Positions 20,434 through 52,774 of a stretch of 64,000 nt of DNA are shown here, piece by piece (positions within the stretch are counted from its first letter, which is position 1; each line of letters starts with the position of its first letter). The notes beneath the pieces are model-generated. The model did no database searches. It was given only the letters and a program-made list of their open reading frames with translations, and was not told where the DNA came from. The stretch covers positions 16,606 through 80,605 of IMG/VR virus record IMGVR_UViG_3300025572_000008. The stretch is one strand, 5' to 3'. Source of the DNA: a virus. A program made the position numbers and the translations under genes.

Positions 20434-22284
20434 ATGGAGTTTTCTGATATCGCCTTGGCCAAGCTGCTACAGACGGTGCCTGAGCTCGGATCTTTAATTA
20501 TCAATTTCCAAGATGTGACAGAAGAGCTCGAAGAGGATAGCGGCACAAAGGTTGGCGTATTCGTTCTAAGGTCGGGCGGCGACATTTTCTACATTCCCGT
20601 TGTTTCGAAAAACGACAACGTCTACCCGATCGACTCCATCTTCTTCTCGTCCAAGAACAGGTTCTTCCCTTTGACGAAGAAGACCGTCGCTCTCGTCATT
20701 GCTTCCAGCCAGCTCGAGCAGGGCAGACCGAACAAGATTCCGGACAGCGTGGTTACCAACCCGTCTGTCTATCAACTCATCAACCCACCTCGCACTGGCA
20801 AGTATGTCTATGCCAGCTCGAGCCGTCTGATCGACTTTCTGGCGGTTCTGCCTGATTACGTCAAGAAGGCAACGTTTGAGAAGCTCGCTGCGGAGAAGTC
20901 AGTCTACGACAATCTCGATAAGCTCTTCGGTCTAAAGGCCATCTTCGACGTCCTCAAACCTCAGCCTCAAAGTCTTGCGGCCGAGACAAATGCCGTCCCG
21001 ATTTCGGTTGTGACCGATGCCAATCCGACCTTAGATCCGGAAGGTATCTCTAACATTTTGAATGCCGGATACCACGTCGTCGGCGAACAGCCAGGTCGTC
21101 GTGTTGCGGTAACCATGCAGAACTACAACACTCGGGGACTCTTCCGGGAAATCACCAACCTCGACGGAGATCGGGACTACACTATCGTTATGGAAAACGG
21201 GACGAGTCGAGACGCATTCATTCCTAAGATGAACAAGCTGGCTCCGTCCGGAAATCGGTCTCTCGCCCTGTTCACTAACGGTGACTATGCCTTGTGCGAA
21301 CGATTCATCGCTCAGGGCGAAGATCTCGATCGCAAGGAGGTTCTTGATCGACTGTTCGACTATCGCCCTCCGGTTCTGCTGAGGGATTGCGCCAATGGAG
21401 ACACGATCCTCCTGTCGCTGGCCGATGGTACGTTCCTGGGCCCCTTCAAAGTCAGCCGCGTCACTCTCAATGCCTACGGCGTGGATGTGTCCATAAGCGA
21501 CTACGGCACGTCAAACTTCACTCGAATTCTCGGCTACCGCAACTTCGGGAAGATTGCGGAAGGGGCAGGCGCTACTCTGTATGTTCCGTATAACTGCGTC
21601 GTTCTGAAGCTCGGCGACAACATCTCCTTCGAATGTGAAGATCACCTGAACTGCGCTGTCACCAAACGGGAATTGGCGGCCGTTCAGTACCTTGGAGCTG
21701 AGCTCAATCTCGGTTACGACGGTGTCGAGTTTACGGTGAACGGAAAGCCTGTCGGTCAAGAGCCGAAGGTGATGGAGATCCTCGTTGTCAGGGAGGGAAT
21801 CGATCCTGTCGCAGCGGAGAACTTCGTCAAGGAAGCTAAGGCCACCAAGTTCACTCGAATCTATCTGAGCAAGCAGGCATCGAGCACGGACTACAATCCG
21901 GCTGAAGTTCCTCAATACGGCATTCTGCCGGAGCACAACGACGACGTCGCTCCTAACGGTGCGTTCTTGTCTCACATCCAGAAGTCGATGGAGCTTGGCG
22001 ACGCTCAGGTCACTGAGGCTACGATCATCTCCGAGCTTCTGCAGGTACCGAACATGCACGAGCAAATTCAGGAGTACCTGCCCAGCATCGAAGAAGCAAT
22101 CGATAAGCTCGGCCGTATCATGTTCATGGCTCGAGTTCATATCGATCAACTGTCTCGCAACAGCGACGCCGACTCTACCTTTGCATTCCTGGCTAGCATG
22201 AAGAGCGTGTATCGCTTGCTTGGCGACAACTACCTTAAGCTGCAAGAGATGGCTGCTTCGGCCTCGACCATCGATACCGAATAG
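20434..22284 (+). CDS. hypothetical head-associated protein
   Basis: 616 aa; late motif; several K-x-A sites (KKA, KLA, KEA, KQA). Confidence 0.6.
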   Translation: MEFSDIALAKLLQTVPELGSLIINFQDVTEELEEDSGTKVGVFVLRSGGDIFYIPVVSKNDNVYPIDSIFFSSKNRFFPLTKKTVALVIASSQLEQGRPNKIPDSVVTNPSVYQLINPPRTGKYVYASSSRLIDFLAVLPDYVKKATFEKLAAEKSVYDNLDKLFGLKAIFDVLKPQPQSLAAETNAVPISVVTDANPTLDPEGISNILNAGYHVVGEQPGRRVAVTMQNYNTRGLFREITNLDGDRDYTIVMENGTSRDAFIPKMNKLAPSGNRSLALFTNGDYALCERFIAQGEDLDRKEVLDRLFDYRPPVLLRDCANGDTILLSLADGTFLGPFKVSRVTLNAYGVDVSISDYGTSNFTRILGYRNFGKIAEGAGATLYVPYNCVVLKLGDNISFECEDHLNCAVTKRELAAVQYLGAELNLGYDGVEFTVNGKPVGQEPKVMEILVVREGIDPVAAENFVKEAKATKFTRIYLSKQASSTDYNPAEVPQYGILPEHNDDVAPNGAFLSHIQKSMELGDAQVTEATIISELLQVPNMHEQIQEYLPSIEEAIDKLGRIMFMARVHIDQLSRNSDADSTFAFLASMKSVYRLLGDNYLKLQEMAASASTIDTE

Positions 22285-22298
22285 TCATAACGACATAA

Positions 22299-23036
22299 AT
22301 GCGTGTTAATGCCAGGGCCTTACTTATCAAGAATAACACCCTCGGCGCTGATCCTCTCGTAGACACAATTCTGTCCGCAGACGATAGTGCCGAGAAGGCT
22401 CTGTATGCCAAAGCCTTGGAGCTCAACAAGAGCGCTCTGAAGCGTCGGTATATAGAAGCCTGTCTTCTGGCCAGCAGCGATTTTCAACGTATCTCCGACA
22501 TTCTCGAAATCCCCGCCGACGTCATCCAGATGTATGCAGCGGTGTTTTATGACGTCGCTGATCTAGACAAACTCAGCAAGCTCGAACTGCTCGATGTCAA
22601 GGATCGAGATGAACACATGATGAAACTCTGGGCACTCAGCCAGGGCTTGGATTTCATTGAATGGCGTCTCGGGAAAGCCGTCAACATCAGTCCGATCGAC
22701 GGTTTAAAAGAGCTCTTCACGATGTCCGTCTTCAAGGCCAAGGAGAGCCTGTTTTCTGGGAACTCGTCGGAGTCCAGCAAAGAGGGTGTCAAATGGTCGA
22801 AGATGTCAATGGACATCGCTCGCCTGCTCAAGGTCTGGGTCATGGATTCTGACGCGGCCAAGAAAGATATCGAATTGGCTCTGGCCGAAGTCGTACCTGA
22901 ATTCGGTAGTTATGCCGATTTGAACCGAGAAGAAGAAAGCCTTTTGGATGAGGCTCCGGAAGCTTCTGAAACAACGGAAATCCCAGAGTTCAAGGGATAT
23001 ACCGATCTGAACCAGGATAACTCGGCCGAGAAGTAA
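22299..23036 (+). CDS. hypothetical protein
   Basis: 245 aa helical ORF with an acidic tail, in the late operon. Confidence 0.7.
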   Translation: MRVNARALLIKNNTLGADPLVDTILSADDSAEKALYAKALELNKSALKRRYIEACLLASSDFQRISDILEIPADVIQMYAAVFYDVADLDKLSKLELLDVKDRDEHMMKLWALSQGLDFIEWRLGKAVNISPIDGLKELFTMSVFKAKESLFSGNSSESSKEGVKWSKMSMDIARLLKVWVMDSDAAKKDIELALAEVVPEFGSYADLNREEESLLDEAPEASETTEIPEFKGYTDLNQDNSAEK

Positions 23037-23053
23037 GAATCTCGGCTCGAGGC

Positions 23054-23061
23054 TAAAATAG
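23054..23061 (+). promoter_or_regulatory. putative late promoter motif TAAAATAG
   Basis: Same 13-mer as at 1773. Confidence 0.6.
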
Positions 23062-23094
23062 AGCAGTAAACGCTGCCGTTAATCGAGAACAAAT

Positions 23095-24234
23095 ATGACC
23101 CAGATCACCTCGGAACAGCTTCGTGACATTTCCGTCACTGTCGTAGAGCAGTTCCTGAACAACAAAATCCCACTCAGCCTCGGATTGGCTAAGCAAGCCG
23201 CCGCGGCGCAGCTCAACTCCGATCAGATCAAGCGAGCGGTCGAAGCGACTAATACGATTGCCTATCTGAAGGTGCTCAGCATGTCCGACGATCGCACCGT
23301 TGAATTTCCTCTGGCTAAGTACGCCGAAGTCATGCGCCTGGTGACGGTCCCGGATGATGTCGAAAAGCAGGCTGGCTGGCACGAGGAGCAGACCGTGACA
23401 ACGGCCATGCGTCCTGCTGCCACCGCTGATGCAGATCCTTACACCAACCAGGTTCTTACTGGGGTCGAGAAGGAGATTGTCGACGAAGAAAAGCGTCTCC
23501 GGGAAGAACAGGAGAAGATGGCGTACTTCATCAAGGAAGCGGCCATGAACCGCCAGGCCCTGGAAGATCTCGAAGCCCAGAAACTCGTAATCAACGATCG
23601 TCTCGTCAAACTGGCCAAGGTTGTGGCCGACGACGAGAAGGGCATGGACAAGCTCGCTTCGGTCGTAGACGGAGAGGAGTACGCCCAGCTGTCCGTCCTC
23701 GTGACGGGCGAGTTGAAGCCTCATCGTGACTTCGGTGGCCATGCACTCTTCAAGGAAGCCGAACTTAAGGACGTCAACGCTCTCGCCGGGCTGTTCAAAG
23801 AAGCCAAGCGCATTGTTGCCGAGGCTGCGAGACGATCGGCGCTTCAGAAGAGAGCCGAGGAAGTGTCACAGGAACTGACCAAGGAAGCGTTTATCGGCTC
23901 TCTTGCCAGCGGAGCAGGGAAGATTCTTGGGAAGGCAATGGTTGCTCCCTTCAAGGCCGTAGCTAAAGTTCCCGCCCGCATGGCCGGCCGCTCGATTCAC
24001 AACACCTTCGGACCCGGCGTCACCAAGGTTCAGAACATGGCTGGCTCTGTGAAATCCAAAGTGACTGGCAAGCCTTTTACCCCGAAGACATTCACTGCGG
24101 CTAAGGGTCTAGGACTCGGTACGGCTCTCTATGGAGCCGGTTCGGTTGCCATGGATGCTGCCATGTACGACCCAGGTCGGGACGCTAAGACCGGTCGTTC
24201 AAACGACGTGTGGTCTGCGCTTCAGCGCGACTAG
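23095..24234 (+). CDS. putative internal head protein (K-x-A rich, Gly-rich C-terminus)
   Basis: 379 aa; KQA, KLA, KEA and KRA sites; coiled-coil middle. Confidence 0.6.
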   Translation: MTQITSEQLRDISVTVVEQFLNNKIPLSLGLAKQAAAAQLNSDQIKRAVEATNTIAYLKVLSMSDDRTVEFPLAKYAEVMRLVTVPDDVEKQAGWHEEQTVTTAMRPAATADADPYTNQVLTGVEKEIVDEEKRLREEQEKMAYFIKEAAMNRQALEDLEAQKLVINDRLVKLAKVVADDEKGMDKLASVVDGEEYAQLSVLVTGELKPHRDFGGHALFKEAELKDVNALAGLFKEAKRIVAEAARRSALQKRAEEVSQELTKEAFIGSLASGAGKILGKAMVAPFKAVAKVPARMAGRSIHNTFGPGVTKVQNMAGSVKSKVTGKPFTPKTFTAAKGLGLGTALYGAGSVAMDAAMYDPGRDAKTGRSNDVWSALQRD

Positions 24235-24246
24235 GAGCAGGTACGC

Positions 24247-25065
24247 ATGAACAAGTACCTGGAGAAAATCGCGGAGAAGGGGGAAGAGCCTAAGCGTAAG
24301 AACCCCGGCACGGAGTTTGGAAAGGCGTACGGTGCGCTCATAGCAGGAGGTGTCGGAAAGGTTCCGGTTGCACTCCTATCGAATTACACTAGCCGTAAAA
24401 TTAGGGCCACTATCAATGATACGGGCGTGTCGGATCACGGTACGATCAAGAAGTTCATGCGAGACAACAATCTGCACAAGAACGTCACGTTCAACACCCG
24501 AGAGCATATGAAACGCAGGGAAAAGCTGGACCCCCGTTCGGCCAACACTGTTTCACACTCCAACGTTCGTGGTGCGCCGGGATATATCTACAATCCCTCC
24601 GGGGGCCGAGGATTCATAGCCGGAGTGAAAAAGCCAGGTCTCGGCTCGAGAAAGACCGTCAACAAAGACATCATCATGCACGAGCTGGGACACGCCAAAG
24701 ATCTCCAGACCCATGCCAAGCTAAAGCGTGTCGGTACGATGATCGGCCGACATCCTCGATCGCACGGTGTGTTTGAACTGGCAACCGTCGGAGCTCTGTC
24801 CAACGAGAAAACCAGAGACTACGCCCCTGCCGTAGCAGCCATTCCAGGTGCCCTTGTTCTCCGGGAAGAAGGTGCAGCGAACTATCACGCCTACAAAGGC
24901 ATCAAGGCGCACAAGGGCGGAAAGGCGGCGAACCAGTTCCTGAAGAAGGTCGTGTCGAAAAACATGGCGAGCTATGGCCTGGCCGCCGCCGCGCCGGTCG
25001 CAGCGGCCTATGTCGGTAAGAAGGTCATGGACAAGTGGTCGCCGAGAAAGACGGAGAAAAAATAA
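24247..25065 (+). CDS. NKYLEKIA-tagged protein with zincin (HExxH) domain
   Basis: Starts MNKYLEKIA; IIMHELGHAKD plus downstream EEGAANY. Confidence 0.65.
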   Translation: MNKYLEKIAEKGEEPKRKNPGTEFGKAYGALIAGGVGKVPVALLSNYTSRKIRATINDTGVSDHGTIKKFMRDNNLHKNVTFNTREHMKRREKLDPRSANTVSHSNVRGAPGYIYNPSGGRGFIAGVKKPGLGSRKTVNKDIIMHELGHAKDLQTHAKLKRVGTMIGRHPRSHGVFELATVGALSNEKTRDYAPAVAAIPGALVLREEGAANYHAYKGIKAHKGGKAANQFLKKVVSKNMASYGLAAAAPVAAAYVGKKVMDKWSPRKTEKK

Positions 25066-25068: not shown

Positions 25069-25833
25069 ATGCCGACGATCTCTGCTCAAAAGGTGCGAGG
25101 GTTTCTAGGCAGCCCCAGAACTTATCCTCGAAGTGGCCTCGGGTTTGGCATCGGAGGCGGTGCAATTTCGGCGGCAAAACCAAATATGCCGAATACAACA
25201 AATAGGATCAGCGTGAAGGGAACGACGGGAAAGCTTCGTCCGGTCTCTCACGAAACTGCAATACAGAAGGTAAAAGCCGATTTTCAGACGAAGTCGGCAG
25301 ATTTTAAAGGAACAGGAATGCTTGAAAAGATCAAACAGCTGGCTTTGGAAAAGTGCGCCGGCGACGAGGAGAAGGCGCTTGAATTTCTCGAAGGGTTTTA
25401 CGAAGAGCTGCTAACCAAGAGCGCAGCCTTCGGTTTCAATGTATCCGATCTGGCTGGTGAGTTCACCAAGGGAATTGGAAAGGGTTTGGCTGGTGTCACC
25501 CTGGGTCTCGGCGTTTCTGGTTTGGCTACGGCTGCCAAGAGCATTGCGAACAGCAAGATGCATAACCAGTTTGTCGAAGCACTGCGTCGAGCCATCTCGA
25601 TGAACCCGATCTTGCGTCAGGCCAAGCAAGAGAAGGTCATGAACTACGCTGAGACGATCTTCAAGTTCGCTCCTCACGTCGCCACTGATGCCAATCTGCT
25701 ATCATCGATTCTGGCCAACGCTGTTCACGGTGAAGGTATCGACCCTCAGACGATCAGGACCCTGACGGAACTCGAATCCCGCTACGCTCAAACTTCGTCG
25801 GCGTCTTCGTTTTCTCCTAAAGCCTATGTCTAA
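25069..25833 (+). CDS. putative internal head protein
   Basis: 254 aa; TKSA/EKCA sites and a Gly-zipper segment. Confidence 0.6.
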   Translation: MPTISAQKVRGFLGSPRTYPRSGLGFGIGGGAISAAKPNMPNTTNRISVKGTTGKLRPVSHETAIQKVKADFQTKSADFKGTGMLEKIKQLALEKCAGDEEKALEFLEGFYEELLTKSAAFGFNVSDLAGEFTKGIGKGLAGVTLGLGVSGLATAAKSIANSKMHNQFVEALRRAISMNPILRQAKQEKVMNYAETIFKFAPHVATDANLLSSILANAVHGEGIDPQTIRTLTELESRYAQTSSASSFSPKAYV

Positions 25834-27136
25834 CAAATACCTTGAGAAGGTAGCTGATCTGCGACAGTACGGCCGAATGGCCCGAGAAGCGGTCAATGCC
25901 GGTCGGCGGAATCCTATGACCACGGCCTTTGGAGCAGGCGGGGCATTGGACGGTGCGCTGAGCACAACTCGTCAGGGAGACGAGGGAAATTTTCGTCTCG
26001 GCTTGAGAGGAGTAAGGAACACCATAGTCGGTGCTGCCAAAGGTGCGGCGGCCGGCAAGGCGCTCGAGCTCAGCTATCAGCATCTCAAACGCAAGGCCTT
26101 GGCGGACGCAAATCCGTTTCTCGATAAAGCGGCAAGCTTGGCCGGTGTTGGAAAGCATCTGGCCAAGACGTGGAAGGAGACTCCGTTTTCCGCAAAGGCC
26201 TCTCTCGGAATCAGCGCGACGGGCCTAGGCGTCAGCGCGGCCAATTACAAAACCAATAAGGACAACCGAGATCGTGCCGCGCTGCAAGCAGAGCTGGACC
26301 GAAAGGCCCTTGCTGCGCTTCGAGGCATCCATCGAGAACTGAAGGCTCAAGGCCAGGAGAAACGGGCTGAGGATGAGAAGGCCTATTATGGCGAGGCGGC
26401 GGGGGCGGCCGGCGTCTACTCCGGTCTCAAGATCACGAAGAATCAGTTCGATCGCGGCCATCTGACCGGCCGTGAAACACTCTACCACGGCTCGACCGCG
26501 GAGAACATCGCCAACATCAAGAGGCAGGGCTTGAAGCCCAACCGTTCCGATAAGGGTGTCTCCGGAGTCGTTGGTCTCGGCGAGAAGAACAAGAATCTGG
26601 TGTTCGCGGAGAAGCGGAAGTTTCACGCCCAGAACTACGCCGCGCAGCAGGAAGCCATCTCTGCCGGGAAGGTCAAGAACCAGGCCGACCTGATCCGGGA
26701 GCAGAGGAAGGCGCTCGGAAAGGCGATGAAGCGCCATCTGACCGGTCAGAACAAGTACGTCGCAAAAATCAATTTGCCGACCTGGCGTCAGGAATATCGA
26801 GGCGTGACGAACCCCGAGGTCAAGACGATGTTCCGGAAGATGGAGGGCAACCTCTTCTACAAAATCCAGCCTAAGAGCGTGCAGAAGGCGCAGAAGAATA
26901 TGATCTACAAGAACTTCCAGACGAACGTTCACGTCCAGCGGGGCGAGCACGGGATCGGCACGGAGTACATCAAAGGATCGAAGAACTACCGACGCAACTC
27001 GGCCCGGGAGATCGGTGAGTACATCGCTCACAACAAGGGCCGGTTTGCGAAAGGGCTCGGTAGGGCGGTAGGCGGCCTGGGTATGGCCGCAGCCGGAGCA
27101 GCCCTGTTCAATCACTCACGCAAGAATAATGCTTAA
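25826..27136 (+). CDS. NKYLEKVA-tagged polyprotein with ADP-ribosyltransferase-like domain
   Basis: Starts MSNKYLEKVA; Gly-zipper segments; TLYHGSTAENIANIKRQGLKP...LVF pattern of HGT-type ART folds. Confidence 0.55.
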   Translation: MSNKYLEKVADLRQYGRMAREAVNAGRRNPMTTAFGAGGALDGALSTTRQGDEGNFRLGLRGVRNTIVGAAKGAAAGKALELSYQHLKRKALADANPFLDKAASLAGVGKHLAKTWKETPFSAKASLGISATGLGVSAANYKTNKDNRDRAALQAELDRKALAALRGIHRELKAQGQEKRAEDEKAYYGEAAGAAGVYSGLKITKNQFDRGHLTGRETLYHGSTAENIANIKRQGLKPNRSDKGVSGVVGLGEKNKNLVFAEKRKFHAQNYAAQQEAISAGKVKNQADLIREQRKALGKAMKRHLTGQNKYVAKINLPTWRQEYRGVTNPEVKTMFRKMEGNLFYKIQPKSVQKAQKNMIYKNFQTNVHVQRGEHGIGTEYIKGSKNYRRNSAREIGEYIAHNKGRFAKGLGRAVGGLGMAAAGAALFNHSRKNNA

Positions 27137-28628
27137 GCTTATCAAGTCGGATCCCTACTTCGCCGAGAACGAACCTGCTATCCGGATCATCGATGGTACC
27201 GACCGCTCCGGCCTCATCAAGGCCGCGGCGGACAGCAAGATCGTCGAATACATCTCTCGCATTCACCCGGAGCCCAACAAGGTCTACCTCCACATCCTGG
27301 CGATGGGGGCAGGGGAGTATTTCGGCGCCAATCGGAACCAGGACTATTTCCCAGAGAACACGCTCCTGGATTACTACAAGACGTTCGAAACGTCGCCGGC
27401 GCACGTCTTCCGCAATCACATCAACAAGGATCCTGCCAAGGCGATCGGCCAGGTGGTCTTCGCCATCTACAACGATCGCATGCACCGGGTCGAGCTCATT
27501 GCTTGGATCGACAAAGACAAAGGCCGAGACGTCATCGAACGCATTGAGCGAGGAGACTACCCTGCTACGTCTATGGCGTGCCGCACGCCTTACGACGTTT
27601 GCAGCATATGCGGTAACCGGGCTCATTCCCGACAGGAGTACTGCGAACACCTCTCCGAAGAGCTAGGGCGCATTTATCCTGACGGACGCAAGGTCATGGC
27701 CTTGAACGTTGCCCCGCTTAAATTTTTCGATATTTCCATCGTAATTCGGCCGGCCGACGTTACCAGCTCCGTTTTGCAGAAAGTCGCTTCTGACGAAGGA
27801 CGTGTCATAGGTTCCGCCGAACTCGCTGAAGTTGAAGGTCTGACCGAAAAGACAGCTACGCTCAAAAAGCTCAGTGAGTTCATCAAAGAGGTCACGGACG
27901 GTGTGGTGATCGACGCCGATCCAAATCTCGATGCGGTGCTTGACAAGGTTTCGGACCCGGACGAGAGGGCGCTCGACATTCTTCGAAACTACGAGCTCAA
28001 ACCCGTGCTCGAATCCCTGGCTCATCTAGGAATCAGCCCTTCGATTAGCTGGCTGTCGGAGCTTATCGCTCGAAAGACGATGGGCAAGCAAGGAGAAGGG
28101 ATTGGAGACTTGGTGGCTGGCTACATCAAGGAAGTCGGAATCGAAGGGCTTCCTATGGCTGAGAAGGACTTTGGAGAACCGCAGGGGCCCAATCCTGCTA
28201 TCATCTCGGCTTTGATGCCTTCCGTGAAACAAGCGTCATTGCTCCCAGAGTATGTCACTGATCGAGCTTTCGTTCATGTGAACGGATCGACTTACATACC
28301 TGGAACCAACGTAGGTTTTGTCGGTAATGGCCCACACGTTGAGATGACTCCTTACGAGCGATTCCGCCAGCAGAATCTATTGCCTCAATCACAAACACCA
28401 GGAGGACTTCCTGGGATCGTAAAGACTCTGATGATTATCGGAGGGGCGGCGTTGGCTGCAAAATGGTACATCACACAGATGATTGAGCAGAAGATGAGGA
28501 GAAATCAGGCTTCTCACCAAGCTGGAGAGATTAAAATAGGTTTAGTCGAAAAACGCGCCGATGATTATCGATCAACGTACCGCCTCGCCGAAAGCGCAAT
28601 GGTGCGGCTGATTAAGAAGCGCTGTTAA
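27129..28628 (+). CDS. prohead maturation protease (HK97/assemblin-type, Zn ribbon)
   Basis: FRNH..KDP..AIGQV, catalytic-like TSMAC, CSICGN...CEH, FFDISIVIRPAD; located in the head cluster. Confidence 0.8.
   Translation: MLKLIKSDPYFAENEPAIRIIDGTDRSGLIKAAADSKIVEYISRIHPEPNKVYLHILAMGAGEYFGANRNQDYFPENTLLDYYKTFETSPAHVFRNHINKDPAKAIGQVVFAIYNDRMHRVELIAWIDKDKGRDVIERIERGDYPATSMACRTPYDVCSICGNRAHSRQEYCEHLSEELGRIYPDGRKVMALNVAPLKFFDISIVIRPADVTSSVLQKVASDEGRVIGSAELAEVEGLTEKTATLKKLSEFIKEVTDGVVIDADPNLDAVLDKVSDPDERALDILRNYELKPVLESLAHLGISPSISWLSELIARKTMGKQGEGIGDLVAGYIKEVGIEGLPMAEKDFGEPQGPNPAIISALMPSVKQASLLPEYVTDRAFVHVNGSTYIPGTNVGFVGNGPHVEMTPYERFRQQNLLPQSQTPGGLPGIVKTLMIIGGAALAAKWYITQMIEQKMRRNQASHQAGEIKIGLVEKRADDYRSTYRLAESAMVRLIKKRC
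28532..28539 (+). promoter_or_regulatory. putative late promoter motif TAAAATAG
   Basis: TTAAAATAGGTTTAG is identical to the 15-mer at 31666; lies in the 3' end of the protease gene. Confidence 0.6.
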
Positions 28629-28690
28629 TTCGAAACAAAAATTTCAAGAGGTCTCTATTGCAGCACATGGAGGCCACCTTAAAAGGACTA

Positions 28691-29812
28691 ATGATGACTA
28701 TGACTTTGGATGAACTTCTCTCGGATCTCGAGAAAACCGCAGGCCTGAATAAGGAAGCGGAAATGACCGAAGAGGCTAAGGCTCTGGAGAAGGAAGAGGA
28801 CAAAGAACACGAAAGCGCCAAGGAGAACATCTCCAAGGCGAAGGCGGCCATAGAGGCCGCTGAAAAAGACGTCGAAGACGCTAAGAAGGTCAACGACAAG
28901 GAGAAGGAGCATTGCAAGGAAGCACGTCTTCAAGGTGCTGCCCTGGCGCAAGAGGTGATGAGCAAGGTTGCCGCCCTCAAACTTACTACTAACACCACTG
29001 ACAAGGAACCTGAAATGAAGAAAGAAGCTGCTGAGGCCGGTAAGGCTCTGGCTGACGCCCTCCTGGAAAAGCTGGCTGAAGCCGGCGACGTCAACCTGCA
29101 TGACGGTGTGGCCCCTGGGTCTGTGCCCCAGAAGAACATCGTCAATTCGGCGCAAGTCGTTGCTGAAGACGACGCCAAGATCAAGCCTATGCCGACTGGC
29201 GATGGCATCAAGAACGAAGGAACGATCAACCAGATTCTGGAAGGCATCATCGCCGACGCAGTCGCTCAAGGTGCTACCCCTCACGGCCAAGGCGTGGAAG
29301 CTAAGGCTGCTCCGATCACTGCGGCAGAAGGCGGGGTTGAAGACCAGGCTGTGCCTAATCAAGTTCCGACCGACGAGCAGGAAAAGGCTGCTGCCGTTAT
29401 CGCTCTGGTTAACGATGGTTATGACTTCGAGTCTGCTGTCGAAATGGTCAAGGCTGCTGCCGAAGAGATCGAGCGTGAGGAAAGCGTGCAGATCAAGCAG
29501 GCTGCCTTGGGTGCTCTGCTCGATCGAGGCGTGGACTTCGACCAGGCCGTTGAGATGGTGAAGAAGGCGAACGCTCTGGTCCCCGCTGCCGGCCGTGCGC
29601 TGATGGCTCCCGCCAAGAAGGGTCTGAGCCGCGCGGCTAAGATCGGCATCGGTGCTGGCGCCGCGGGTGCCGTGGCCGGAGGAGCTGCGATGGCTGCCCG
29701 CCGTGGTCAGGAAAAGAAGGCTGCCCTTGACGCTCTGGTTGCGTCCGGCGTGGATTTTGACAAGGCTGTCGAGCTGGTGAACGCTAAGGCCGCCGAGATC
29801 TACGGAGAGTAA
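28691..29812 (+). CDS. scaffold-like head protein with three helical repeats
   Basis: Start moved to the AAAGGA SD; Ala/Glu/Lys-rich; repeats K.AA..AL...G.DF..AVE.V. Confidence 0.65.
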   Translation: MMTMTLDELLSDLEKTAGLNKEAEMTEEAKALEKEEDKEHESAKENISKAKAAIEAAEKDVEDAKKVNDKEKEHCKEARLQGAALAQEVMSKVAALKLTTNTTDKEPEMKKEAAEAGKALADALLEKLAEAGDVNLHDGVAPGSVPQKNIVNSAQVVAEDDAKIKPMPTGDGIKNEGTINQILEGIIADAVAQGATPHGQGVEAKAAPITAAEGGVEDQAVPNQVPTDEQEKAAAVIALVNDGYDFESAVEMVKAAAEEIEREESVQIKQAALGALLDRGVDFDQAVEMVKKANALVPAAGRALMAPAKKGLSRAAKIGIGAGAAGAVAGGAAMAARRGQEKKAALDALVASGVDFDKAVELVNAKAAEIYGE

Positions 29813-29896: not shown

Positions 29897-30361
29897 ATGA
29901 GCAATAAATATCTTCTAAAGCTTGCGGCTATTATCGACGTTGATCCGGAAGGAAACGTTGTGCGAATTCACTCGGATCCGGATCTCGAACATCGAGCTAA
30001 CAAGGCCAAGCTTATCAATCCCTCTCAAAATCGGGCCAACAAATTTCTCCGCCGCGTTGTAGTGCCAGCCTCGATCGTAGGTAGTGCAGCCTACGGGGCG
30101 AAAAAGCTTTATAGCGGTCGCAGGGAAAAACGTGCGGAATTCCTGAGCCCCGAACGAAAGAAAGAGATAGCTCAAACCGGCGTTCTCGTCGGAACTGGAG
30201 TCGGGGCCTCAGCTGCGCTCGATCGCTTCGTTAAGCCACGAATGAATTTTTCCGGTCCTCTTGGGAAGGCCAAATATATCGGCCTAATAGGAGGAGCGAA
30301 CCTCGCTACAGATTACGCCGCAGTTAAAATTAACAAGGCAATTGAACATGCCCGTACCTAA
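29897..30361 (+). CDS. NKYLLKLA-tagged putative internal head protein
   Basis: Tag, internal EKRA site and two Gly-rich hydrophobic segments. Confidence 0.65.
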   Translation: MSNKYLLKLAAIIDVDPEGNVVRIHSDPDLEHRANKAKLINPSQNRANKFLRRVVVPASIVGSAAYGAKKLYSGRREKRAEFLSPERKKEIAQTGVLVGTGVGASAALDRFVKPRMNFSGPLGKAKYIGLIGGANLATDYAAVKINKAIEHART

Positions 30362-30385: not shown

Positions 30386-30991
30386 ATGAGTAACGTCGCA
30401 CAAACTCTCCGCGAACAGGCCGCGGAACTTCGCCTGACTCCAGAGAGCGTCGCAATCGAGATGTTGAAGGAAGCTGGGCTGTCTGAAGAAGACGCTCGCT
30501 TCGAAGTTCTCCAGACTCTTATGGAAAAAGAGGCCCTGTCTGCGCTGACGGACAAGGGCATCGACATGGAAGAGGCGGTGAAGTTAGTCAAGGCTGCGAA
30601 CATCAACGTTCGTGAGCTCACCAACATCACTCTCGAACCGGAGACCAATCCGACGGCCGATCTCCTAGAGAAGGCAGCAACGTACATCGAAGCTCTCGAA
30701 GGACGTGTTGCCGAGCTCGAGACCGAGAATGCCAAGCTCTACGAAGATCTGGAAAAAGCTGTAACCGAGGCGTCTGCAGCGAAAGAAGAAGAACCGGAGC
30801 TGCCGGAGTCTTTGAGCAAGCTGGCTTCGGTCGGTGCTTTTACCAACGAGGACCTGGCTGAGCTGAAGCGTCTTAATCCAGAAGTGCTGACTAAGGTTGC
30901 ATCCGTTGCGGATGAACCGTGGAGCCTTGGGGCTCCCGCCGGGGTAGCCCGTCCTCAGACGGATCCTTTGTTGGAGTTCATCCTCAGCTAG
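30386..30991 (+). CDS. scaffold-like coiled-coil protein
   Basis: Shares the repeat EKEALSAL..KGIDMEEAVKLVKAA with the 28691 protein. Confidence 0.65.
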   Translation: MSNVAQTLREQAAELRLTPESVAIEMLKEAGLSEEDARFEVLQTLMEKEALSALTDKGIDMEEAVKLVKAANINVRELTNITLEPETNPTADLLEKAATYIEALEGRVAELETENAKLYEDLEKAVTEASAAKEEEPELPESLSKLASVGAFTNEDLAELKRLNPEVLTKVASVADEPWSLGAPAGVARPQTDPLLEFILS

Positions 30992-30996: not shown

Positions 30997-31314
30997 GTGA
31001 CGAACAAGTACCTCGAGAAACTCGCCCGGCATGACAAGGGCGAGAACAACAAAGTCTCCGACGTTGCAAAGAAGGCGATCCCTGCCAGCGCGGTCGGCGG
31101 TGCATTAGGTGCAGCGATCGGCCTGCAGAATCACAAGAGCATGGTTCAGCGATTGAACCGCTCCGGTGCCCTGGGTCGCCAAGTTTCTCCCATCCTTGAT
31201 CGAGCTTTCAAGAGACGAGCCGTGGGGCGCAGCTCTCTCGGCTATGCCGGCGTCGTCGGTGGTCTCTCGGCTTTGAACGCCGCCATGAAATCGAAAAGCT
31301 CGTCTTCCCAATAA
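30997..31314 (+). CDS. NKYLEKLA-tagged small basic protein
   Basis: GTG start VTNKYLEKLA; Gly-zipper AVGGALGAAIG. Confidence 0.65.
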   Translation: MTNKYLEKLARHDKGENNKVSDVAKKAIPASAVGGALGAAIGLQNHKSMVQRLNRSGALGRQVSPILDRAFKRRAVGRSSLGYAGVVGGLSALNAAMKSKSSSSQ

Positions 31315-31322: not shown

Positions 31323-31625
31323 GTGAACAAGTACTTAGAGAAAATCGCCGCCGACAAGGAAAAGAAATACAGCGTCCGCAATTCGGCTATCGCAGGTGGA
31401 CTGCTGGGAGCAAACGTTGCCGGTACGTGGTCTATCTCCAATCAGTTCAAAGAAGATCTTGTCGACTGGGCAAAACGTCCAGGGTCCCCTGATCTGAAGA
31501 AGTTTCCGAACATGAAACCCTTCAGTGCACGGACGCTTAAAGCGGCCGGCAAGGGCGCAGCCGTTCTCGGTTCTCTCGGCGCCGCGGAAGCTGCAATTCG
31601 CAATCGCTTTCAGAAGAAGAAATAA
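31323..31625 (+). CDS. NKYLEKIA-tagged small basic protein
   Basis: GTG start; Gly-zipper segments. Confidence 0.7.
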   Translation: MNKYLEKIAADKEKKYSVRNSAIAGGLLGANVAGTWSISNQFKEDLVDWAKRPGSPDLKKFPNMKPFSARTLKAAGKGAAVLGSLGAAEAAIRNRFQKKK

Positions 31626-32217: not shown

Positions 32218-33111
32218 ATGAGCGGATACAACCTCGAAACTATCAACGTTCAGTTTCTGAACCAGTCCTTCCTGGACAAGATCGATCAAGGTCTGACTAA
32301 GGAAGCCGGCGTTGCCATCTCGGCCTTTGTGCGCCAAAAGCTCCGTGAAGACGGCTTCACCCGCAAGGTTCTGAACCCGATTAGTGTCACGGCTGCCGAA
32401 CTCGACCGTCAGGTGACGGAAGAGCCGACGATCATCGTCGAAAAGGAACCGGATTCGATTGCTGCCAACCTGCCGTTCCTGGGCCGCGCTGAGATCCGTT
32501 ACTGGAAAACAGCCCGCTATCCGGTGACCTTCCAGAAGATCTCTTCTGCTTCGTTCAAGAAGAGCAAGTTCGAGCTGGCTACCTACCGCACGGACATCCG
32601 TACCGTGCTGCAGGAAAACAGCGTCAAGGACATGCAGAAGCAGGAAGACAGAAACTTCTATGACAACGTCATCCAGATGGCCACCGACAACAACAATGTG
32701 TTCAACATTTCTGGCGGTTTCACGAAGGCTAATCTGGTGGCAGGCATCAAGAACATGCTCCGTCACCAGTTGCCTGTCGGCTGCCTGCTGATGACGCAGT
32801 CGATGTACGCTGATCTGCTGGCCTTCCCCTCCACTGAAATCGGTTCGCCTGCTGCCTCGGATCTGTTCCGCGGTCAGGGTACGCTGGACACCTTCTTCGG
32901 CTACAAGGTGATCGTGACCAACAAGCACGACATTCTGCCGGATACCCAGTGCCTCGTCTTTGCTCCGCAGGAATACCTCGGTCAGTTCTACGCCCTCCAG
33001 GATGCCACCGTGTTCCTGAAGGTCGAACAGGACATCATCGAGTTCACCTCCTACGAAGCGGTCGGCGTAGGTATCGGCAACGTCAACGGAGTCGTTGTCC
33101 TGAACTTCTAA
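32218..33111 (+). CDS. major capsid protein (HK97 fold)
   Basis: 297 aa; E-loop/backbone-helix pattern (IRTVLQENSVKDMQKQEDRNF), C-terminal YEAVGVGIGN; strongly biased codons; terminator follows; TKEA site at residues 27-30. Confidence 0.8.
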   Translation: MSGYNLETINVQFLNQSFLDKIDQGLTKEAGVAISAFVRQKLREDGFTRKVLNPISVTAAELDRQVTEEPTIIVEKEPDSIAANLPFLGRAEIRYWKTARYPVTFQKISSASFKKSKFELATYRTDIRTVLQENSVKDMQKQEDRNFYDNVIQMATDNNNVFNISGGFTKANLVAGIKNMLRHQLPVGCLLMTQSMYADLLAFPSTEIGSPAASDLFRGQGTLDTFFGYKVIVTNKHDILPDTQCLVFAPQEYLGQFYALQDATVFLKVEQDIIEFTSYEAVGVGIGNVNGVVVLNF

Positions 33112-50319: not shown

Positions 50320-51210
50320 ATGCTCGCATATACTCTTAAGGAAATCCTTACGCTCGTTCCAGAAGCACTGCCGTTGGTGAAGGAGGCTCACGTCGATCAA
50401 GAGATGCCTCTCAGCAACCGAGATTCTTGCATCGCTACGGCTTTGCAGCTGAAGTACCACGAGGCTGTTGAATACAAGCCTGTTGACGTTTTCTCGATCG
50501 AGAAAGTGGCTAAGGCCGTTCGGCTCTACGGCGTCGAGGATGTCGTTTCCGACCTCTCAGACAAGCTGGTGAAAGCGGCGAACGAACGCAAAGCCAATGC
50601 CGGCCGAGATCTCAAGGCAGAGTACCTGACTAAACAAGCTGCCTTTGACGGCGAAGGTACCGGCTTTCCCGATCCTCAACGCCTGGCTGATCGAGCCGCC
50701 GAGCTCTATAAGGAAGCCCAAGCCGTCGGTGTTGAACCGTCCGAGAACGTTCTTCGCTATTCCGGACATGGGTTCTTGAGTAAGGAAGCGGCTGTAAAGG
50801 CTTTGGCAGCCCGTTTTCAAGCCACCAAGAATCCTGACTTCGTCAAGATTGCTAGCGCTCTGAATCGCCTCGATACCTTGACGATGAAGTCAGAGACCAT
50901 CCAGGATATCTGCTCGACGGTCACTCAGATGGACAAGGAGGCCGGCCTGCATGCCAAGGGTTTCGACTTCTATCGTGAAGCGATCCTCACTAAGGAGGCG
51001 GCGGTTGTCACCAGTCTGAACGTCAAGCTTTGCGGCAAGGAAGTTCCTTACGAAAGCATTCTCCGTGTCGGACGCGACCGAATTGCTCAGTACATCGGGG
51101 AAGACGTCGCCAAGGAAATCGACGCCGGCCCCATGAACGCTAAGCAGGTTCTCGAAACCCTACCTCTTGATTTGCAGCGTTTGATCTGCGATCTGATCCA
51201 GAACGTCTAA
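50320..51210 (+). CDS. K-x-A-rich putative head protein
   Basis: 296 aa; KEA, KVA, KAA, KQA and KIA recur. Confidence 0.65.
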   Translation: MLAYTLKEILTLVPEALPLVKEAHVDQEMPLSNRDSCIATALQLKYHEAVEYKPVDVFSIEKVAKAVRLYGVEDVVSDLSDKLVKAANERKANAGRDLKAEYLTKQAAFDGEGTGFPDPQRLADRAAELYKEAQAVGVEPSENVLRYSGHGFLSKEAAVKALAARFQATKNPDFVKIASALNRLDTLTMKSETIQDICSTVTQMDKEAGLHAKGFDFYREAILTKEAAVVTSLNVKLCGKEVPYESILRVGRDRIAQYIGEDVAKEIDAGPMNAKQVLETLPLDLQRLICDLIQNV

Positions 51211-51214
51211 GGTT

Positions 51215-51448
51215 ATGACCAACAGGTATCTGATCAAGATCGCCGACTCCTACCGGGACCAATATAACCTTCTGGAACGGTTAGTAGATAAAGCTATATC
51301 CCATGATGCGAGAGTCCTATATACCCAGGGTGAAAAACTACGGCCGGGATTAGGGTCTACACTAAGTTCGTACTATGAAAGATCTATGCGAAATCTTCTG
51401 AATAAACATGTTGAGAAGAGACTTCTTAAGTCTAAGAGGATGATTTAA
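51215..51448 (+). CDS. NRYLIKIA-tagged small protein
   Basis: Starts MTNRYLIKIAD. Confidence 0.65.
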   Translation: MTNRYLIKIADSYRDQYNLLERLVDKAISHDARVLYTQGEKLRPGLGSTLSSYYERSMRNLLNKHVEKRLLKSKRMI

Positions 51449-51458
51449 TATTTAACTT

Positions 51459-51770
51459 ATGACCAACAAATACCTCGAGAAAGCCTCTGCGCTAATCCGC
51501 AGCCCTGAAAACATTGGCAGCCGCTTGGCGCAGCTGGGCATGGCCGCGGCCAACCGGCTGCAACGGACCAAGGGAGTTCTCCTCAACCACCAGGGCCGTG
51601 TCGTCAGTGCGCCATCAAGTCTTCCCCGGGGAGAACGTGCGCTCCATGATCATGATAAACTAGTCCGAACGGCGAACAAGCTGCACGCTCAACCGAACAG
51701 TGGCCATCCTGCCGTGAACGAGACCTTCAAGAAAAAGGTCGGTGATAAACCGAACATCTTCTATCGCTAA
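51459..51770 (+). CDS. NKYLEKAS-tagged small basic protein
   Basis: Starts MTNKYLEKASA. Confidence 0.65.
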   Translation: MTNKYLEKASALIRSPENIGSRLAQLGMAAANRLQRTKGVLLNHQGRVVSAPSSLPRGERALHDHDKLVRTANKLHAQPNSGHPAVNETFKKKVGDKPNIFYR

Positions 51771-51773
51771 ATC

Positions 51774-52214
51774 ATGATGAACAGATACCTTGAGAAAATA
51801 GCCGCCTGGCGTGAGCTGGAGCCAGGTGTTCATTATCATGATGAAACCGGCGAATTTGCGGCCACTGACGAAGCACGTAAGCGTATCTATAACGAAGAAA
51901 ATAGGCGTAATACGAGACCTGCGATTAAGGCGCTTGGCACCTTAGGAGCAGCCGTAGGCCTTGGCGTAGGTTTAGTCGCCAGTCGTAAAAACCCTTTTCT
52001 CCAGAAAGTTAAGCGTACCGCTATGGCTACGGGCATCGGTGGAGGCGCTGGGGCGCTGGGAGGTGTTTACATAGGTCACAGCTACAACAAGGACCAAGAC
52101 AGGCGTATCGGCAAGGATCAACGTATCGCCGATCATATCCATCGCCGAGCGGGGAGATACGATCGGACTCGCCATGGCCGTCTATTTGGCGGTGATAATC
52201 CCGATGAGGAATAA
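51774..52214 (+). CDS. NRYLEKIA-tagged protein with Gly zipper
   Basis: Starts MMNRYLEKIAA; ALGTLGAAVGLGVG...GIGGGAGALGG. Confidence 0.7.
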   Translation: MMNRYLEKIAAWRELEPGVHYHDETGEFAATDEARKRIYNEENRRNTRPAIKALGTLGAAVGLGVGLVASRKNPFLQKVKRTAMATGIGGGAGALGGVYIGHSYNKDQDRRIGKDQRIADHIHRRAGRYDRTRHGRLFGGDNPDEE

Positions 52215-52228
52215 TCAGTAGCACGCCT

Positions 52229-52774
52229 ATGTCTGAACTGCTTCTAAAACAAGCCGAAGCCTCGATGGGGCAGGCACCAATCTCCCATATCAAGGCCAAC
52301 CTGGACCGTCTCTTCGGCAAAGGCGTCTGGGTAGACTGGGAGCCGGAAACGCTAAGCATTGAGCTAGGCTTGATCATGGATGACCTGCTTCTCGAGAAAC
52401 TTACTGTCCTTAAGATTCTCGAGCAAGAGCCTGACCTGTTCTTCGATGACGTCACTTTCATGCTACATGCTACTGAGGTCATCAACAATCACGTCGCTGA
52501 TTTTGAGACGGTACCTATGCCGACGAGTCTCGAGTTGGCCTTTGCCATATCCGAAGTGAAGAAGATCAGGCAGGCAAACGATCTACCAGTGACCTTCCCG
52601 CTGTCATTCACTGCAGCAATCGCCTACCTTCTTCGGCAAGAAGGATATTCGAAACCGATCGAACCTTTCGATTTTGTCCCAGAGGCCATGCTCGAACATG
52701 GTCAGACGCCTGCAGATACCGAGGCTAAGAAGAAGGCAATCAAGACCTATATCGAGCACATGGAAAGCCTATGA
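52229..52774 (+). CDS. hypothetical protein
   Basis: 181 aa in the late operon. Confidence 0.7.
   Translation: MSELLLKQAEASMGQAPISHIKANLDRLFGKGVWVDWEPETLSIELGLIMDDLLLEKLTVLKILEQEPDLFFDDVTFMLHATEVINNHVADFETVPMPTSLELAFAISEVKKIRQANDLPVTFPLSFTAAIAYLLRQEGYSKPIEPFDFVPEAMLEHGQTPADTEAKKKAIKTYIEHMESL

What the first reader, a model, noticed from the sequence alone, without database searches (positions are those of the whole stretch)
20434..52774. Pervasive K-x-A motif in head proteins: candidate prohead-protease cleavage code
Seen: (E/T/S/V)K-x-A, often followed by a small residue, recurs in the head-cluster proteins. Examples: EKQA, TKEA, QKRA (23095); TKSA, EKCA (25069); QKVA, EKTA, VKQA, EKRA (protease itself); about ten copies in 28691; TKEA at MCP residues 27-30; about eight in 50320. 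It is not conspicuous in sheath or tube. Known: T4 gp21 and phiKZ gp175 cut many head proteins at short motifs ending in Glu. Inference: an Ala-directed equivalent in this lineage, including removal of an MCP propeptide.
Basis: partly seen in the sequence, partly recalled or inferred. Interest (0 to 1): 0.65.

Follow-up and report, generated by a model that had tools for sequence, protein, structure and literature searches.

The report
Predicted L-x-K-x-A head-protease cleavage code
Head proteins of this uncultured 168-kb phage and its relatives carry many conserved copies of a short L-x-K-x-A signal, which most likely marks where the phage's head-maturation protease cuts them and which also ends a portable N-terminal tag on proteins probably packed into the head; none of this has been tested at the bench.

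Summary
K-x-A alone is only 1.5-fold enriched. The full motif is hydrophobic-x-K-x-A, often followed by S, A or G. L.K.A occurs 36 times in 20 head-module proteins against 4.5 expected (z=16). The other 181 ORFs of the genome have 11 against 15.5. The excess recurs in Salmonella phage Arash and Vibrio phage D69, and most sites are conserved in orthologues above flank level. The motif brackets the protease catalytic domain on both sides in 146 diverse members of a protease family with 3,765 cluster representatives that matches no Pfam family or PDB chain. Eight proteins start with M(x)N(K/R)YL-x-K-x-A. The same tag heads SNF2 helicases, ADP-ribosyltransferase-like proteins and small basic or glycine-zipper proteins in related IMG/VR contigs. 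One window protein is a fusion of cargo modules that are separate tagged proteins in relatives, and its junctions keep the K-x-A core. Best reading (about 0.65): a prohead-protease cleavage code plus a T4-like capsid-targeting tag. The cut is probably after Ala, but a cut after Lys is not excluded. No proteomic evidence exists. The ORF at 20434 is not the portal; the portal is at 4709-6553. The scan had already noted the tag on this same stretch in a separate finding.

The parts
27129..28628 (+). Prohead (head maturation) serine protease, 499 aa. The catalytic domain spans roughly residues 35-220, with candidate catalytic His97 and Ser148 and a CxxC...CxH zinc-ribbon insert (C158, C161, C172, H174). 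Motif sites lie at K31/A33, K218/A220, K241/A243 and K475/A477.
   Evidence: phrog_18299 'head maturation protease', E=2e-10. 44% identity to Arash gp222 and 32% to phage G gp19, which PMC12484599 annotates as a head maturation protease. H97, N99, S148 and M149 are about invariant in 146 family representatives; K31 is 0.92, A33 0.90, K218 0.90 and A220 0.86.
32218..33111 (+). Major capsid protein, 297 aa, with the motif G-L-T-K-E-A|G at residues 25-31. The predicted mature form is 31-297 (29.9 kDa).
   Evidence: phrog_2522 'major head protein', E=5e-17, matching residues 30-295. 51% identity to the Arash MCP gp226. K28, E29 and A30 are invariant in 11 orthologues and residue 31 is G or S. Masses.
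28658..29812 (+). Scaffold-like Ala/Glu/Lys-rich protein (the true start may be the ATG at 28691) with 15 K.A sites, 7 of them with a hydrophobic residue at -2. Its C-terminal part holds repeats of the type G-x-D-F-x-x-A-V-E-M-V-K-x-A.
   Evidence: Site conservation in 14 orthologues is 0.64-1.0 for K and A. The Arash gp223 and D69 counterparts have 8 and 10 K.A against about 3 expected. The scaffold role is inferred from composition and gene position only.
23095..24234 (+). Head-module protein of 379 aa with 12 K.A sites, 10 of them with a hydrophobic -2 residue. It is a probable core or internal protein that is cut into pieces.
   Evidence: 12 vs 4.7 expected. Eight of the 10 hydrophobic-x-K-x-A sites keep K in at least 0.69 of 13 orthologues (seven in at least 0.85), while flank identity is 0.44-0.70. 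Arash gp220 has 10 vs 2.9 and the D69 orthologue 11 vs 4.0.
30386..30991 (+). Head-module protein of 201 aa with 6 motif sites.
   Evidence: 6 vs 1.7 expected, p=0.001. K and A are conserved at 0.79-1.0 in 14 orthologues.
50320..51210 (+). Protein of 296 aa in the second head-related module, with 9 motif sites such as LTKQAA, LSKEAA, LTKEAA and MDKEAG.
   Evidence: 9 vs 3.0 expected, none of 1000 shuffles reached it. The sites are listed. Arash ORF 174466-175335 (289 aa) is the only non-head Arash ORF with at least 2 strict sites; it has 5.
25069..25833 (+). Head-module protein of 254 aa with a conserved LEKCAG site at residue 95 and less conserved sites at 117 and 199.
   Evidence: site 95: hydrophobic residue, K, A and the following small residue are all 1.00 in 10 orthologues.
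20434..22284 (+). Head-module protein of 616 aa, the orthologue of Arash gp218, function unassigned and not the portal. Conserved sites are FEKLAA (150), FVKEAK (466) and LSKQAS (480).
   Evidence: No Pfam or PHROG hit. K.A is 6 vs 2.5. Sites 150, 466 and 480 are conserved at 0.83-1.0 in 12 orthologues, whereas 268 and 373 are not.
24247..25065 (+). Tagged cargo protein of 272 aa that starts MNKYLEKIAE and contains an HELGH (HExxH) metalloprotease-like motif.
   Evidence: Orthologues with the same tag occur in IMG/VR loci L038, L030, L039 and L018. There is no Pfam hit.
25826..27136 (+). Tagged cargo polyprotein of 436 aa that starts MSNKYLEKVAD. Its internal relic tags are NPFLDKAAS (residues 96-104) and QEKRAE (177-182). 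The C-terminal part is an ADP-ribosyltransferase-like domain.
   Evidence: Weak PARP hit, E=3e-4, below the Pfam cut-off. Residues 96-186 align to stand-alone tagged proteins of 104-106 aa starting at their residue 2, and residues 178-426 align to a stand-alone tagged 260-aa protein starting at its residue 6.
29897..30361 (+). Tagged small protein of 154 aa that starts MSNKYLLKLAA, with Gly/Ala-rich hydrophobic segments.
30997..31314 (+). Tagged small protein of 105 aa with a GTG start, reading (M)TNKYLEKLAR.
31323..31625 (+). Tagged small protein of 100 aa with a GTG start, reading (M)NKYLEKIAA.
51215..51448 (+). Tagged small protein of 77 aa that starts MTNRYLIKIAD.
51459..51770 (+). Tagged small protein of 103 aa that starts MTNKYLEKASA, a variant with Ser in place of the final Ala.
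51774..52214 (+). Tagged small protein of 146 aa that starts MMNRYLEKIAA, with a glycine-zipper-like segment.
   Evidence: A tagged homologue is in L014 and L015.
13261..15165 (-). PE-SNF2 fusion of 634 aa with two internal tag copies, GNKYIEKAA (residues 134-142) and CNRYLVKIA (152-160), between the two domains. It lies outside the finding's span but belongs to the same system.
   Evidence: In relatives the SNF2 helicase (PF00176, E=1e-17 to 1e-21) starts directly with MNKYLEKIA.

Best explanation
The motif hydrophobic-x-K-x-A, usually followed by S, A or G, is the recognition site of the phage's prohead serine protease (27129-28628).

Inferred sequence of events. The protease, the scaffold-like proteins, the MCP and a set of cargo proteins co-assemble into the procapsid. 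The protease then cuts at the motif, most likely between Ala and the following small residue, so that P5 is hydrophobic, P3 is Lys, P1 is Ala and P1' is small. The predicted results are as follows.

- The protease frees its own catalytic core of about 21 kDa by cutting at residues 33/34 and 220/221.
- The scaffold-like and core proteins (28658, 23095, 30386, 50320) are chopped into short peptides that can leave the head.
- The first 30 residues of the MCP are removed.
- The N-terminal tag M(x)N(K/R)YL-x-K-x-A is removed from eight cargo proteins.
- The fused cargo proteins are separated into their modules (25826, and probably the PE-SNF2 protein at 13261-15165).

The N-K-Y part of the tag carries no information at internal sites. 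It is read as the capsid-targeting half, and L-x-K-x-A as the processing half. This is the same two-part logic as the T4 capsid targeting sequence.

Shown here: the statistics, head specificity, conservation, placement around the protease domain, portability of the tag and the fusion junctions. Inferred: that cleavage happens, the exact scissile bond, packaging of the tagged proteins, and the scaffold role.
For: (1) Enrichment is head-specific after composition correction. L.K.A is 36 vs 4.5 in head proteins and 11 vs 15.5 in 181 other ORFs. The reversed pattern and the R, E, G and S variants are not comparably enriched.

(2) The same holds in relatives with about 45-50% protein identity. In Arash head proteins [LMIFV].K.A[AGS] is 25 vs 1.6, against 16 vs 14.5 in the rest of the genome. 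The D69 scaffold-like protein has 10 K.A vs 2.8.

(3) Most sites are conserved at 0.8-1.0 for the hydrophobic residue, K and A in 10-14 orthologues, where flank identity is 0.45-0.75.

(4) The motif flanks the protease catalytic domain on both sides in 146 diverse representatives. On the N side K is 0.92 and A 0.90; on the C side L is 0.73, K 0.90 and A 0.86. The linkers between are variable and gappy. Phage G gp19 shows the same. Autocleavage has been shown for the SPN3US protease gp245 and is reported or expected for T4 gp21.

(5) The tag ends in the motif and sits on unrelated proteins. There are eight in this genome. In related IMG/VR contigs there are 69 ORF starts in 53 loci, giving 50 distinct proteins. 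These include SNF2 helicases that pass Pfam cut-offs.

(6) A natural fusion supports cleavage at junctions. Modules of 25826 are separate tagged proteins in relatives, and the junctions keep the K-x-A core while the N-K-Y part has decayed.

(7) Information content is confined to positions -2 to +3 around K, the size of a protease subsite footprint.

(8) There is precedent for Ala at P1 in capsid proteases: herpesvirus assemblin sites YLQA-T and VQA-S (PMC4498786). There is also precedent for a small P1' residue in SPN3US gp245 (PMC10052503).
Against: There is no experimental evidence of cleavage in this lineage. The Arash virion proteomics paper reports only coverage percentages, and its supplement holds no peptide lists.

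Arash gp223, the scaffold-like protein, was detected in that preparation. This does not fit complete removal of the scaffold, although the preparation listed 116 proteins and may not have been pure.

Some sites sit inside repeated helical units of the scaffold-like protein, so part of the count reflects repeat duplication rather than independent sites.

The MCP N-terminus is conserved along its whole length, as expected if it stays in the mature protein.

The protease could not be placed by fold: the AlphaFold2 model had pLDDT 47. It has no significant Pfam or PDB match.

Phage G's MCP has no K.A at all, so MCP processing is not a feature of the whole family.
Confidence: 0.65

Rival explanations
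1. The motif and the protease are the same, but the scissile bond follows Lys (hydrophobic-x-K, then the cut). This mirrors T4 gp21's L/I-x-E cut with the P1 charge reversed. Ala and the small residue would then sit at P2' and P3'. The mature MCP would start at E29, and cargo proteins would keep the two residues after the Lys (I-A in the consensus tag).
For: The hydrophobic-x-K spacing equals the P3-P1 spacing of the T4 and SPN3US motifs. [LMIFV].K alone is enriched, 155 vs 104.7. From memory, HK97 gp5 is cut after a Lys.
Against: It needs strong specificity on the primed side, because Ala at +2 is as conserved as Lys. That is unusual for this kind of protease. Tag conservation ends exactly after the Ala. 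The preference for a small residue at +3 fits a P1' position, as in SPN3US and the herpesviruses.
Confidence: 0.22
2. The motif is an assembly or docking signal that is bound rather than cut. For example, it could be a short helix that binds the inner capsid surface, the scaffold or the protease. The NKYLEKIA tag would then be a packaging signal that stays on the mature proteins.
For: The motif is helix-compatible, and part of it lies in repeated helical units of the scaffold-like protein. Scaffold-like Arash gp223 and the protease gp222 were detected in the virion preparation. The conserved MCP N-terminus could be a scaffold-binding helix.
Against: It does not explain why the motif brackets the protease catalytic domain in variable linkers across a very large family. 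It does not explain why the junctions of fused cargo modules keep only the K-x-A core. It does not explain why information is limited to six residues with a small residue at +3. Docking and cleavage are not exclusive: the T4 CTS does both.
Confidence: 0.12
3. The motif has no specific function. The excess would be a by-product of Ala/Lys/Glu/Leu-rich helical composition and of internal repeats and paralogy among head proteins.
For: Head proteins are richer in K and A than the rest of the genome. Several sites belong to tandem repeats. The eight tags are paralogous N-termini.
Against: Per-protein shuffles already remove composition. The reversed motif and charge- or size-swapped variants are not enriched. 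The excess survives removal of the N-termini, 28 vs 4.2. The sites are better conserved than their flanks in orthologues and recur in non-repetitive proteins, namely the protease, the MCP and 25069. The tag occurs on SNF2 helicases and ART-like enzymes that share nothing else.
Confidence: 0.05

Closest known systems
T4 gp21 prohead protease with its L/I-x-E cleavage motif and the 10-residue capsid targeting sequence (CTS) of the internal proteins IPII and IPIII, MKTYQEFIAE
   Same: A short motif is scattered through scaffold and core proteins, the MCP N-terminus and the protease itself. A roughly 10-residue N-terminal tag is shared by unrelated packaged proteins: its front half targets and its back half is the processing site (PMC9026906). 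The packaged cargo includes an ADP-ribosyltransferase (T4 Alt; here 25826). The T4 tag was verified in the T4 genome. It shares M1, Y4, E6, I8 and A9 with MNKYLEKIA.
   Different: The motif chemistry differs: Lys and Ala here instead of Glu at P1. Glu-type motifs are at expectation here. Residue 10 after the tag is variable here, whereas T4 needs Glu10. The protease shows no significant sequence similarity to gp21 (hhalign E=0.12) and carries a zinc-ribbon insert. Whether the similarity between the tags reflects homology or chance cannot be decided.
The prohead proteases of phiKZ (gp175) and SPN3US (gp245), which cleave after A-x-E (S/A/G-x-E)
   Same: Many head and ejection proteins are processed at a short motif with a small residue at P1'. 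The protease cuts itself, and propeptides contain several motif copies (PMC10052503). This phage lineage also encodes a multisubunit RNA polymerase, whose subunits were detected in the Arash virion preparation.
   Different: P1 is Glu there, whereas here it is predicted to be Ala (or Lys). The protease family is different. Those sites are mapped by mass spectrometry, and these are only predicted.
Herpesvirus assemblin, with R-site YLQA-T and M-site VQA-S
   Same: It is a capsid maturation serine protease that cuts after Ala with Ser or Thr at P1', releases itself from a scaffold-linked precursor, and trims the scaffold (PMC4498786). The R-site Y-L-Q-A resembles the tag's Y-L-E-K-I-A.
   Different: Assemblin has a hydrophobic P3 and no Lys requirement. 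The simple pattern [VLI].A[ST] is not enriched here. No sequence or fold relation could be tested because the model was poor.
HK97 gp4 / Pfam Peptidase_S78 prohead serine proteases
   Same: The gene sits upstream of the scaffold function and the MCP. His precedes Ser by about 50 residues. hhalign places the invariant Ser148 on the gp4 Ser that I recall as catalytic (Ser114).
   Different: The match is not significant (E=0.4), and only 2 of 30 family members touch PF04586, at E about 0.05. HK97 has no separate scaffold or cargo tags.

Membership tests
Prohead (capsid maturation) serine proteases (HK97 gp4 S78, T4 gp21 S77, assemblin-like) | Significant match to a curated family model | tested here: inconclusive
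   PHROG phrog_18299 'head maturation protease' matches at E=2e-10. There is no Pfam hit for the window protein. Only 2 of 30 family members reach PF04586, at E about 0.05. There is no PDB sequence match.
Prohead (capsid maturation) serine proteases (HK97 gp4 S78, T4 gp21 S77, assemblin-like) | Invariant His followed about 50 residues later by an invariant Ser | tested here: met
   H97 is 1.00 and S148 0.99 in 146 representatives. hhalign, though not significant, aligns S148 with the Ser at position 140 of T4 gp21 and position 114 of HK97 gp4. That these two are the catalytic serines is from memory.
Prohead (capsid maturation) serine proteases (HK97 gp4 S78, T4 gp21 S77, assemblin-like) | Gene lies in the head module next to the scaffold and MCP genes | tested here: met
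   The order is protease 27129, scaffold-like 28658, MCP 32218. The order is the same in Arash and D69.
Prohead (capsid maturation) serine proteases (HK97 gp4 S78, T4 gp21 S77, assemblin-like) | Assemblin/HK97 protease fold | tested here: inconclusive
   The AlphaFold2 model had mean pLDDT 47 and was not fit for a fold search.
Prohead (capsid maturation) serine proteases (HK97 gp4 S78, T4 gp21 S77, assemblin-like) | Cleaves head proteins in the procapsid | not testable with these tools
   This needs virion mass spectrometry or an in-vitro assay.
T4-type capsid targeting sequence (CTS) | A short N-terminal peptide shared by otherwise unrelated proteins of one phage | tested here: met
   There are eight ORFs in this genome. 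Related contigs hold 50 distinct tagged proteins, including SNF2 helicases, ART-like proteins, small basic peptides and glycine-zipper proteins.
T4-type capsid targeting sequence (CTS) | The tag ends in the prohead protease's processing motif | tested here: met
   The tag's L-E-K-I-A equals the head-enriched motif and the protease's own C-side site L-x-K-V-A-S. That the tag is actually processed is inferred.
T4-type capsid targeting sequence (CTS) | Sufficient to direct a foreign protein into the capsid, and removed there | not testable with these tools
   This needs a tag-reporter fusion in a cultured relative that uses the tag. Arash lacks it.
Glu-P1 cleavage code (T4 L/I-x-E; phiKZ and SPN3US A-x-E) | Enrichment of the hydrophobic- or small-x-E motif in head proteins | tested here: not met
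   [LI].E is 56 vs 54.4, [SAG].E 88 vs 91.4 and A.E 45 vs 46.0.

The most novel reading that the evidence does not exclude
K-x-A with a hydrophobic residue at -2 is the substrate code of an entire, very large and uncurated family of prohead proteases. The family has 3,765 cluster representatives at 50% identity and includes phage G gp19 and the cluster-C mycobacteriophage homologues. Its specificity would be assemblin-like, with Ala at P1. In one clade the code is coupled to a portable N-K-Y-L-E-K-I-A capsid-targeting tag. If so, the packaged and ejected protein set of thousands of uncultured phages could be read directly from sequence, and the tag could be used to load foreign proteins into capsids.
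Probability: 0.4. Interest if true: 0.75.

Novelty: new variant of a known kind. Interest (0 to 1): 0.62.

Why it matters
Cleavage codes of prohead proteases have been mapped experimentally for only a few model phages, such as T4, phiKZ and SPN3US, which cut after Glu, and for the herpesviruses. A sequence-derived code for a protease family this large, and absent from Pfam and the PDB, would do three things. It would give a direct and cheap test: one mass spectrometry run on Arash or a Vibrio phage. It would let annotators recognise scaffold, core and injected cargo proteins in otherwise unannotated phage genomes. It would also identify a second natural capsid-targeting tag after T4's. The tagged cargo here includes an ADP-ribosyltransferase-like enzyme, SNF2 helicases, a metalloprotease-like protein and small membrane-active or DNA-binding peptides. 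These point to what these phages may inject along with their DNA.

Tried and rejected
- AlphaFold2 on the protease and the MCP with 11-sequence alignments gave mean pLDDT 47 and 49. Both were too poor for fold searches, and no prediction jobs remained.
- Profile searches of the protease family against PDB sequences and Pfam gave nothing significant.
- hhalign against single T4 gp21 and HK97 gp4 sequences was not significant. I use it only for the position of the Ser.
- Megablast of the head region against cultured phages found nothing. tblastn then found Arash and the Vibrio phages.
- The Arash paper and its supplement were searched for peptide-level data to locate neo-N-termini. Only coverage percentages and protein sequences are given.
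- A full-text search for 'KYLEKIA' found no paper. Searches for a published Lys/Ala prohead-protease motif found none in the held library.
- Arash was searched for the NKYLEKIA tag and for any other shared N-terminal tag, and none was found.
- I first took 20434 to be the portal, as its place in the head module suggested. Homology rejected this.
- I did not run complex prediction, because an enzyme with a short substrate peptide is outside what that test can judge.

Full report
**Context.** The window is the minus strand of positions 89305-153304 of a single 168,216-bp contig. Megablast finds no close cultured relative. At the protein level the nearest cultured phages are Salmonella phage Arash and Vibrio phages D69, D181 and D148. 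Their MCPs are 48-51% identical to the window's, and their proteases about 44%. The MCP is 32218-33111 (phrog_2522 'major head protein', E=5e-17). The protease is 27129-28628 (phrog_18299 'head maturation protease', E=2e-10). Its N-terminal domain is also 32% identical to phage G gp19, which PMC12484599 lists as a head maturation protease. One correction to the head-cluster picture is needed. The 616-aa ORF at 20434 has no family hit. The portal is 4709-6553 (PHROG portal families, E=1e-10; orthologue of Arash gp204), and the large terminase is 62131-63789.

**Relatives.** Arash head proteins gp218-gp226 have [LMIFV].K.A[AGS] at 25 vs 1.6 expected, while the rest of the Arash genome has 16 vs 14.5. 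D69 shows the same pattern: its scaffold-like protein has ten sites, nearly all of the form [LM]-x-K-x-A-S. In alignments of 10-14 orthologues from related IMG/VR contigs, most sites keep the hydrophobic residue, K and A in 80-100% of sequences, while flank identity is 45-75%. The MCP site is invariant (K28, E29, A30, then G or S), but the whole MCP N-terminus is conserved.

**The protease family.** A search of 1.84 billion cluster representatives with the catalytic domain gave 3,765 hits at E&lt;1e-3. In 146 of the best 150, which share 45-75% identity with the query in the matched domain, H97, N99, S148 and M149 are essentially invariant. H55 is not. The domain is bracketed by the motif on both sides:
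- On the N side, the hydrophobic residue is about 0.84, K31 0.92 and A33 0.90.
- On the C side, L216 is 0.73, K218 0.90 and A220 0.86.

In both places the neighbouring linker columns are variable or gapped. Phage G gp19 has LVKTAA before the domain and LEKVAS and LLKIAS after it. Autocleavage has been shown for SPN3US gp245 and is reported or expected for T4 gp21, so motif sites flanking the domain fit that pattern. The family has no Pfam or PDB match. hhalign to T4 gp21 and HK97 gp4 is not significant but places S148 on their serines. The structure models were too poor to use.

**The tag.** Eight ORFs begin M(x)N(K/R)YL-x-K-x-(A/S). Apart from two tag-like copies inside the PE-SNF2 protein, described below, nothing else in the six-frame translation of the genome matches. 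A degenerate DNA pattern for MNKYLEKIA found 69 ORF starts in 53 IMG/VR loci. By my estimate far fewer than one is expected by chance. All these contigs are relatives, with MCP identity of 57-77%. The tag sits on the following kinds of protein:
- SNF2 helicases (PF00176, E=1e-17 to 1e-21, above the Pfam cut-off);
- ADP-ribosyltransferase-like proteins;
- a metalloprotease-like protein;
- basic peptides of 50-60 aa;
- glycine-zipper proteins.

Variants keep N-[KR]-Y-[LI]-x-K-x-[AS]. The back half of the tag is the head motif. The N-K-Y half has no counterpart at internal sites.

This parallels the T4 capsid targeting sequence, whose front half targets and whose back half is processed (PMC9026906). 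I confirmed MKTYQEFIAE at two T4 gene starts. It shares M1, Y4, E6, I8 and A9 with MNKYLEKIA. No paper in the held library contains 'KYLEKIA'.

**Natural fusions.** ORF 25826 (436 aa) aligns over residues 96-186 with stand-alone tagged proteins of 104-106 aa, starting at their residue 2 (NPFLDKAAS against NKYLEKIAS). It aligns over residues 178-426 with a stand-alone tagged ART-like protein, starting at its residue 6 (EKRAEDEK against EKIAADKE). The junctions have therefore kept the K-x-A core and lost N-K-Y. That is what one expects if the core is needed to separate modules and the front half is needed only once per polypeptide. The PE-SNF2 protein (13261-15165, minus strand) has two tag copies in its interdomain linker, where relatives have the helicase N-terminus.

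**Mechanism and uncertainty.** The most economical reading is a cleavage code for the prohead protease together with a targeting tag. I favour a cut after Ala for three reasons:
- Tag conservation stops exactly after the Ala.
- The next residue is preferentially small, as at P1' of SPN3US gp245 and of herpesvirus assemblin, which also has Ala at P1.
- A cut after Lys would require unusually strong specificity on the primed side.

A cut after Lys would, however, mirror T4's L/I-x-E spacing, and it cannot be excluded. A docking-only role is less likely, and a composition artefact is very unlikely. Neither explains the sites that flank the protease domain or the fusion junctions.

No experiment bears on any of this. 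The Arash proteomics data give no peptide-level information. Detection of the scaffold-like gp223 in that preparation is mildly at odds with complete removal of the scaffold.

**Earlier notes of this scan.** I verified both here.

**Verdict.** It is a new variant of a known kind of system, and it can be tested directly in cultured relatives.

Noticed in passing
window 4709-6553 (+) and 20434-22284 (+): The portal is 4709-6553 (PHROG portal families, E=1e-10; orthologue of Arash gp204). It lies next to the RNA polymerase genes and far from the protease-MCP block. The 616-aa protein at 20434 (Arash gp218, abundant in the Arash virion proteomics) has no recognisable family.
   Followed up: partly
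window 27129-28628, residues 156-176 of the protein: The protease family carries a conserved CxxC...CxH zinc-ribbon-like insert (C158, C161, C172 and H174, each at or above 0.90 in 146 representatives) just after the candidate catalytic Ser. A few family members also hit Hint (intein) domains. The family matches no Pfam family and no PDB chain by sequence.
   Followed up: partly
window 33163-34809 (-): A 548-aa ORF lies on the opposite strand directly after the MCP gene. It has repeated DUF723-type zinc-finger units, an MTES_1575-like restriction-endonuclease domain below the Pfam cut-off and a Mom-like C-terminus. It looks like a mobile endonuclease-type insertion in the structural block.
   Followed up: no
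window 24247-25065 (+): This tagged cargo protein contains an HELGH (HExxH) motif. That suggests a zinc metallopeptidase is packaged in the head. It has no Pfam hit, and tagged orthologues exist in several IMG/VR relatives.
   Followed up: partly
window 13261-15165 (-), residues 134-160: The PE-SNF2 fusion has two tandem internal tag copies, GNKYIEKAA and CNRYLVKIA, in the interdomain linker. In relatives the SNF2 helicase is a separate protein that starts with MNKYLEKIA.
   Followed up: partly
L002-L004 and L001 (Salmonella phage Arash genome): In Arash, K.A is slightly depleted outside the head module, 205 observed against 239 expected (about 2.7 SD). No such depletion is seen in this genome (186 vs 178).
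   Followed up: no
L063 (Mycobacterium phage Alice, gp90): The cluster-C mycobacteriophage homologue of the protease domain is the N-terminal part of a 1,511-aa protein encoded just upstream of the MCP. It has 19 K.A against 8.8 expected, so it may be a protease-scaffold polyprotein.
   Followed up: no
window 4269-4634 (+) and 52229-52774 (+): Two further ORFs have a motif copy at the position where the tag has it, but without N-K-Y: MKSGSLIKRAS and MSELLLKQAE. They may be additional processed head proteins.
   Followed up: no
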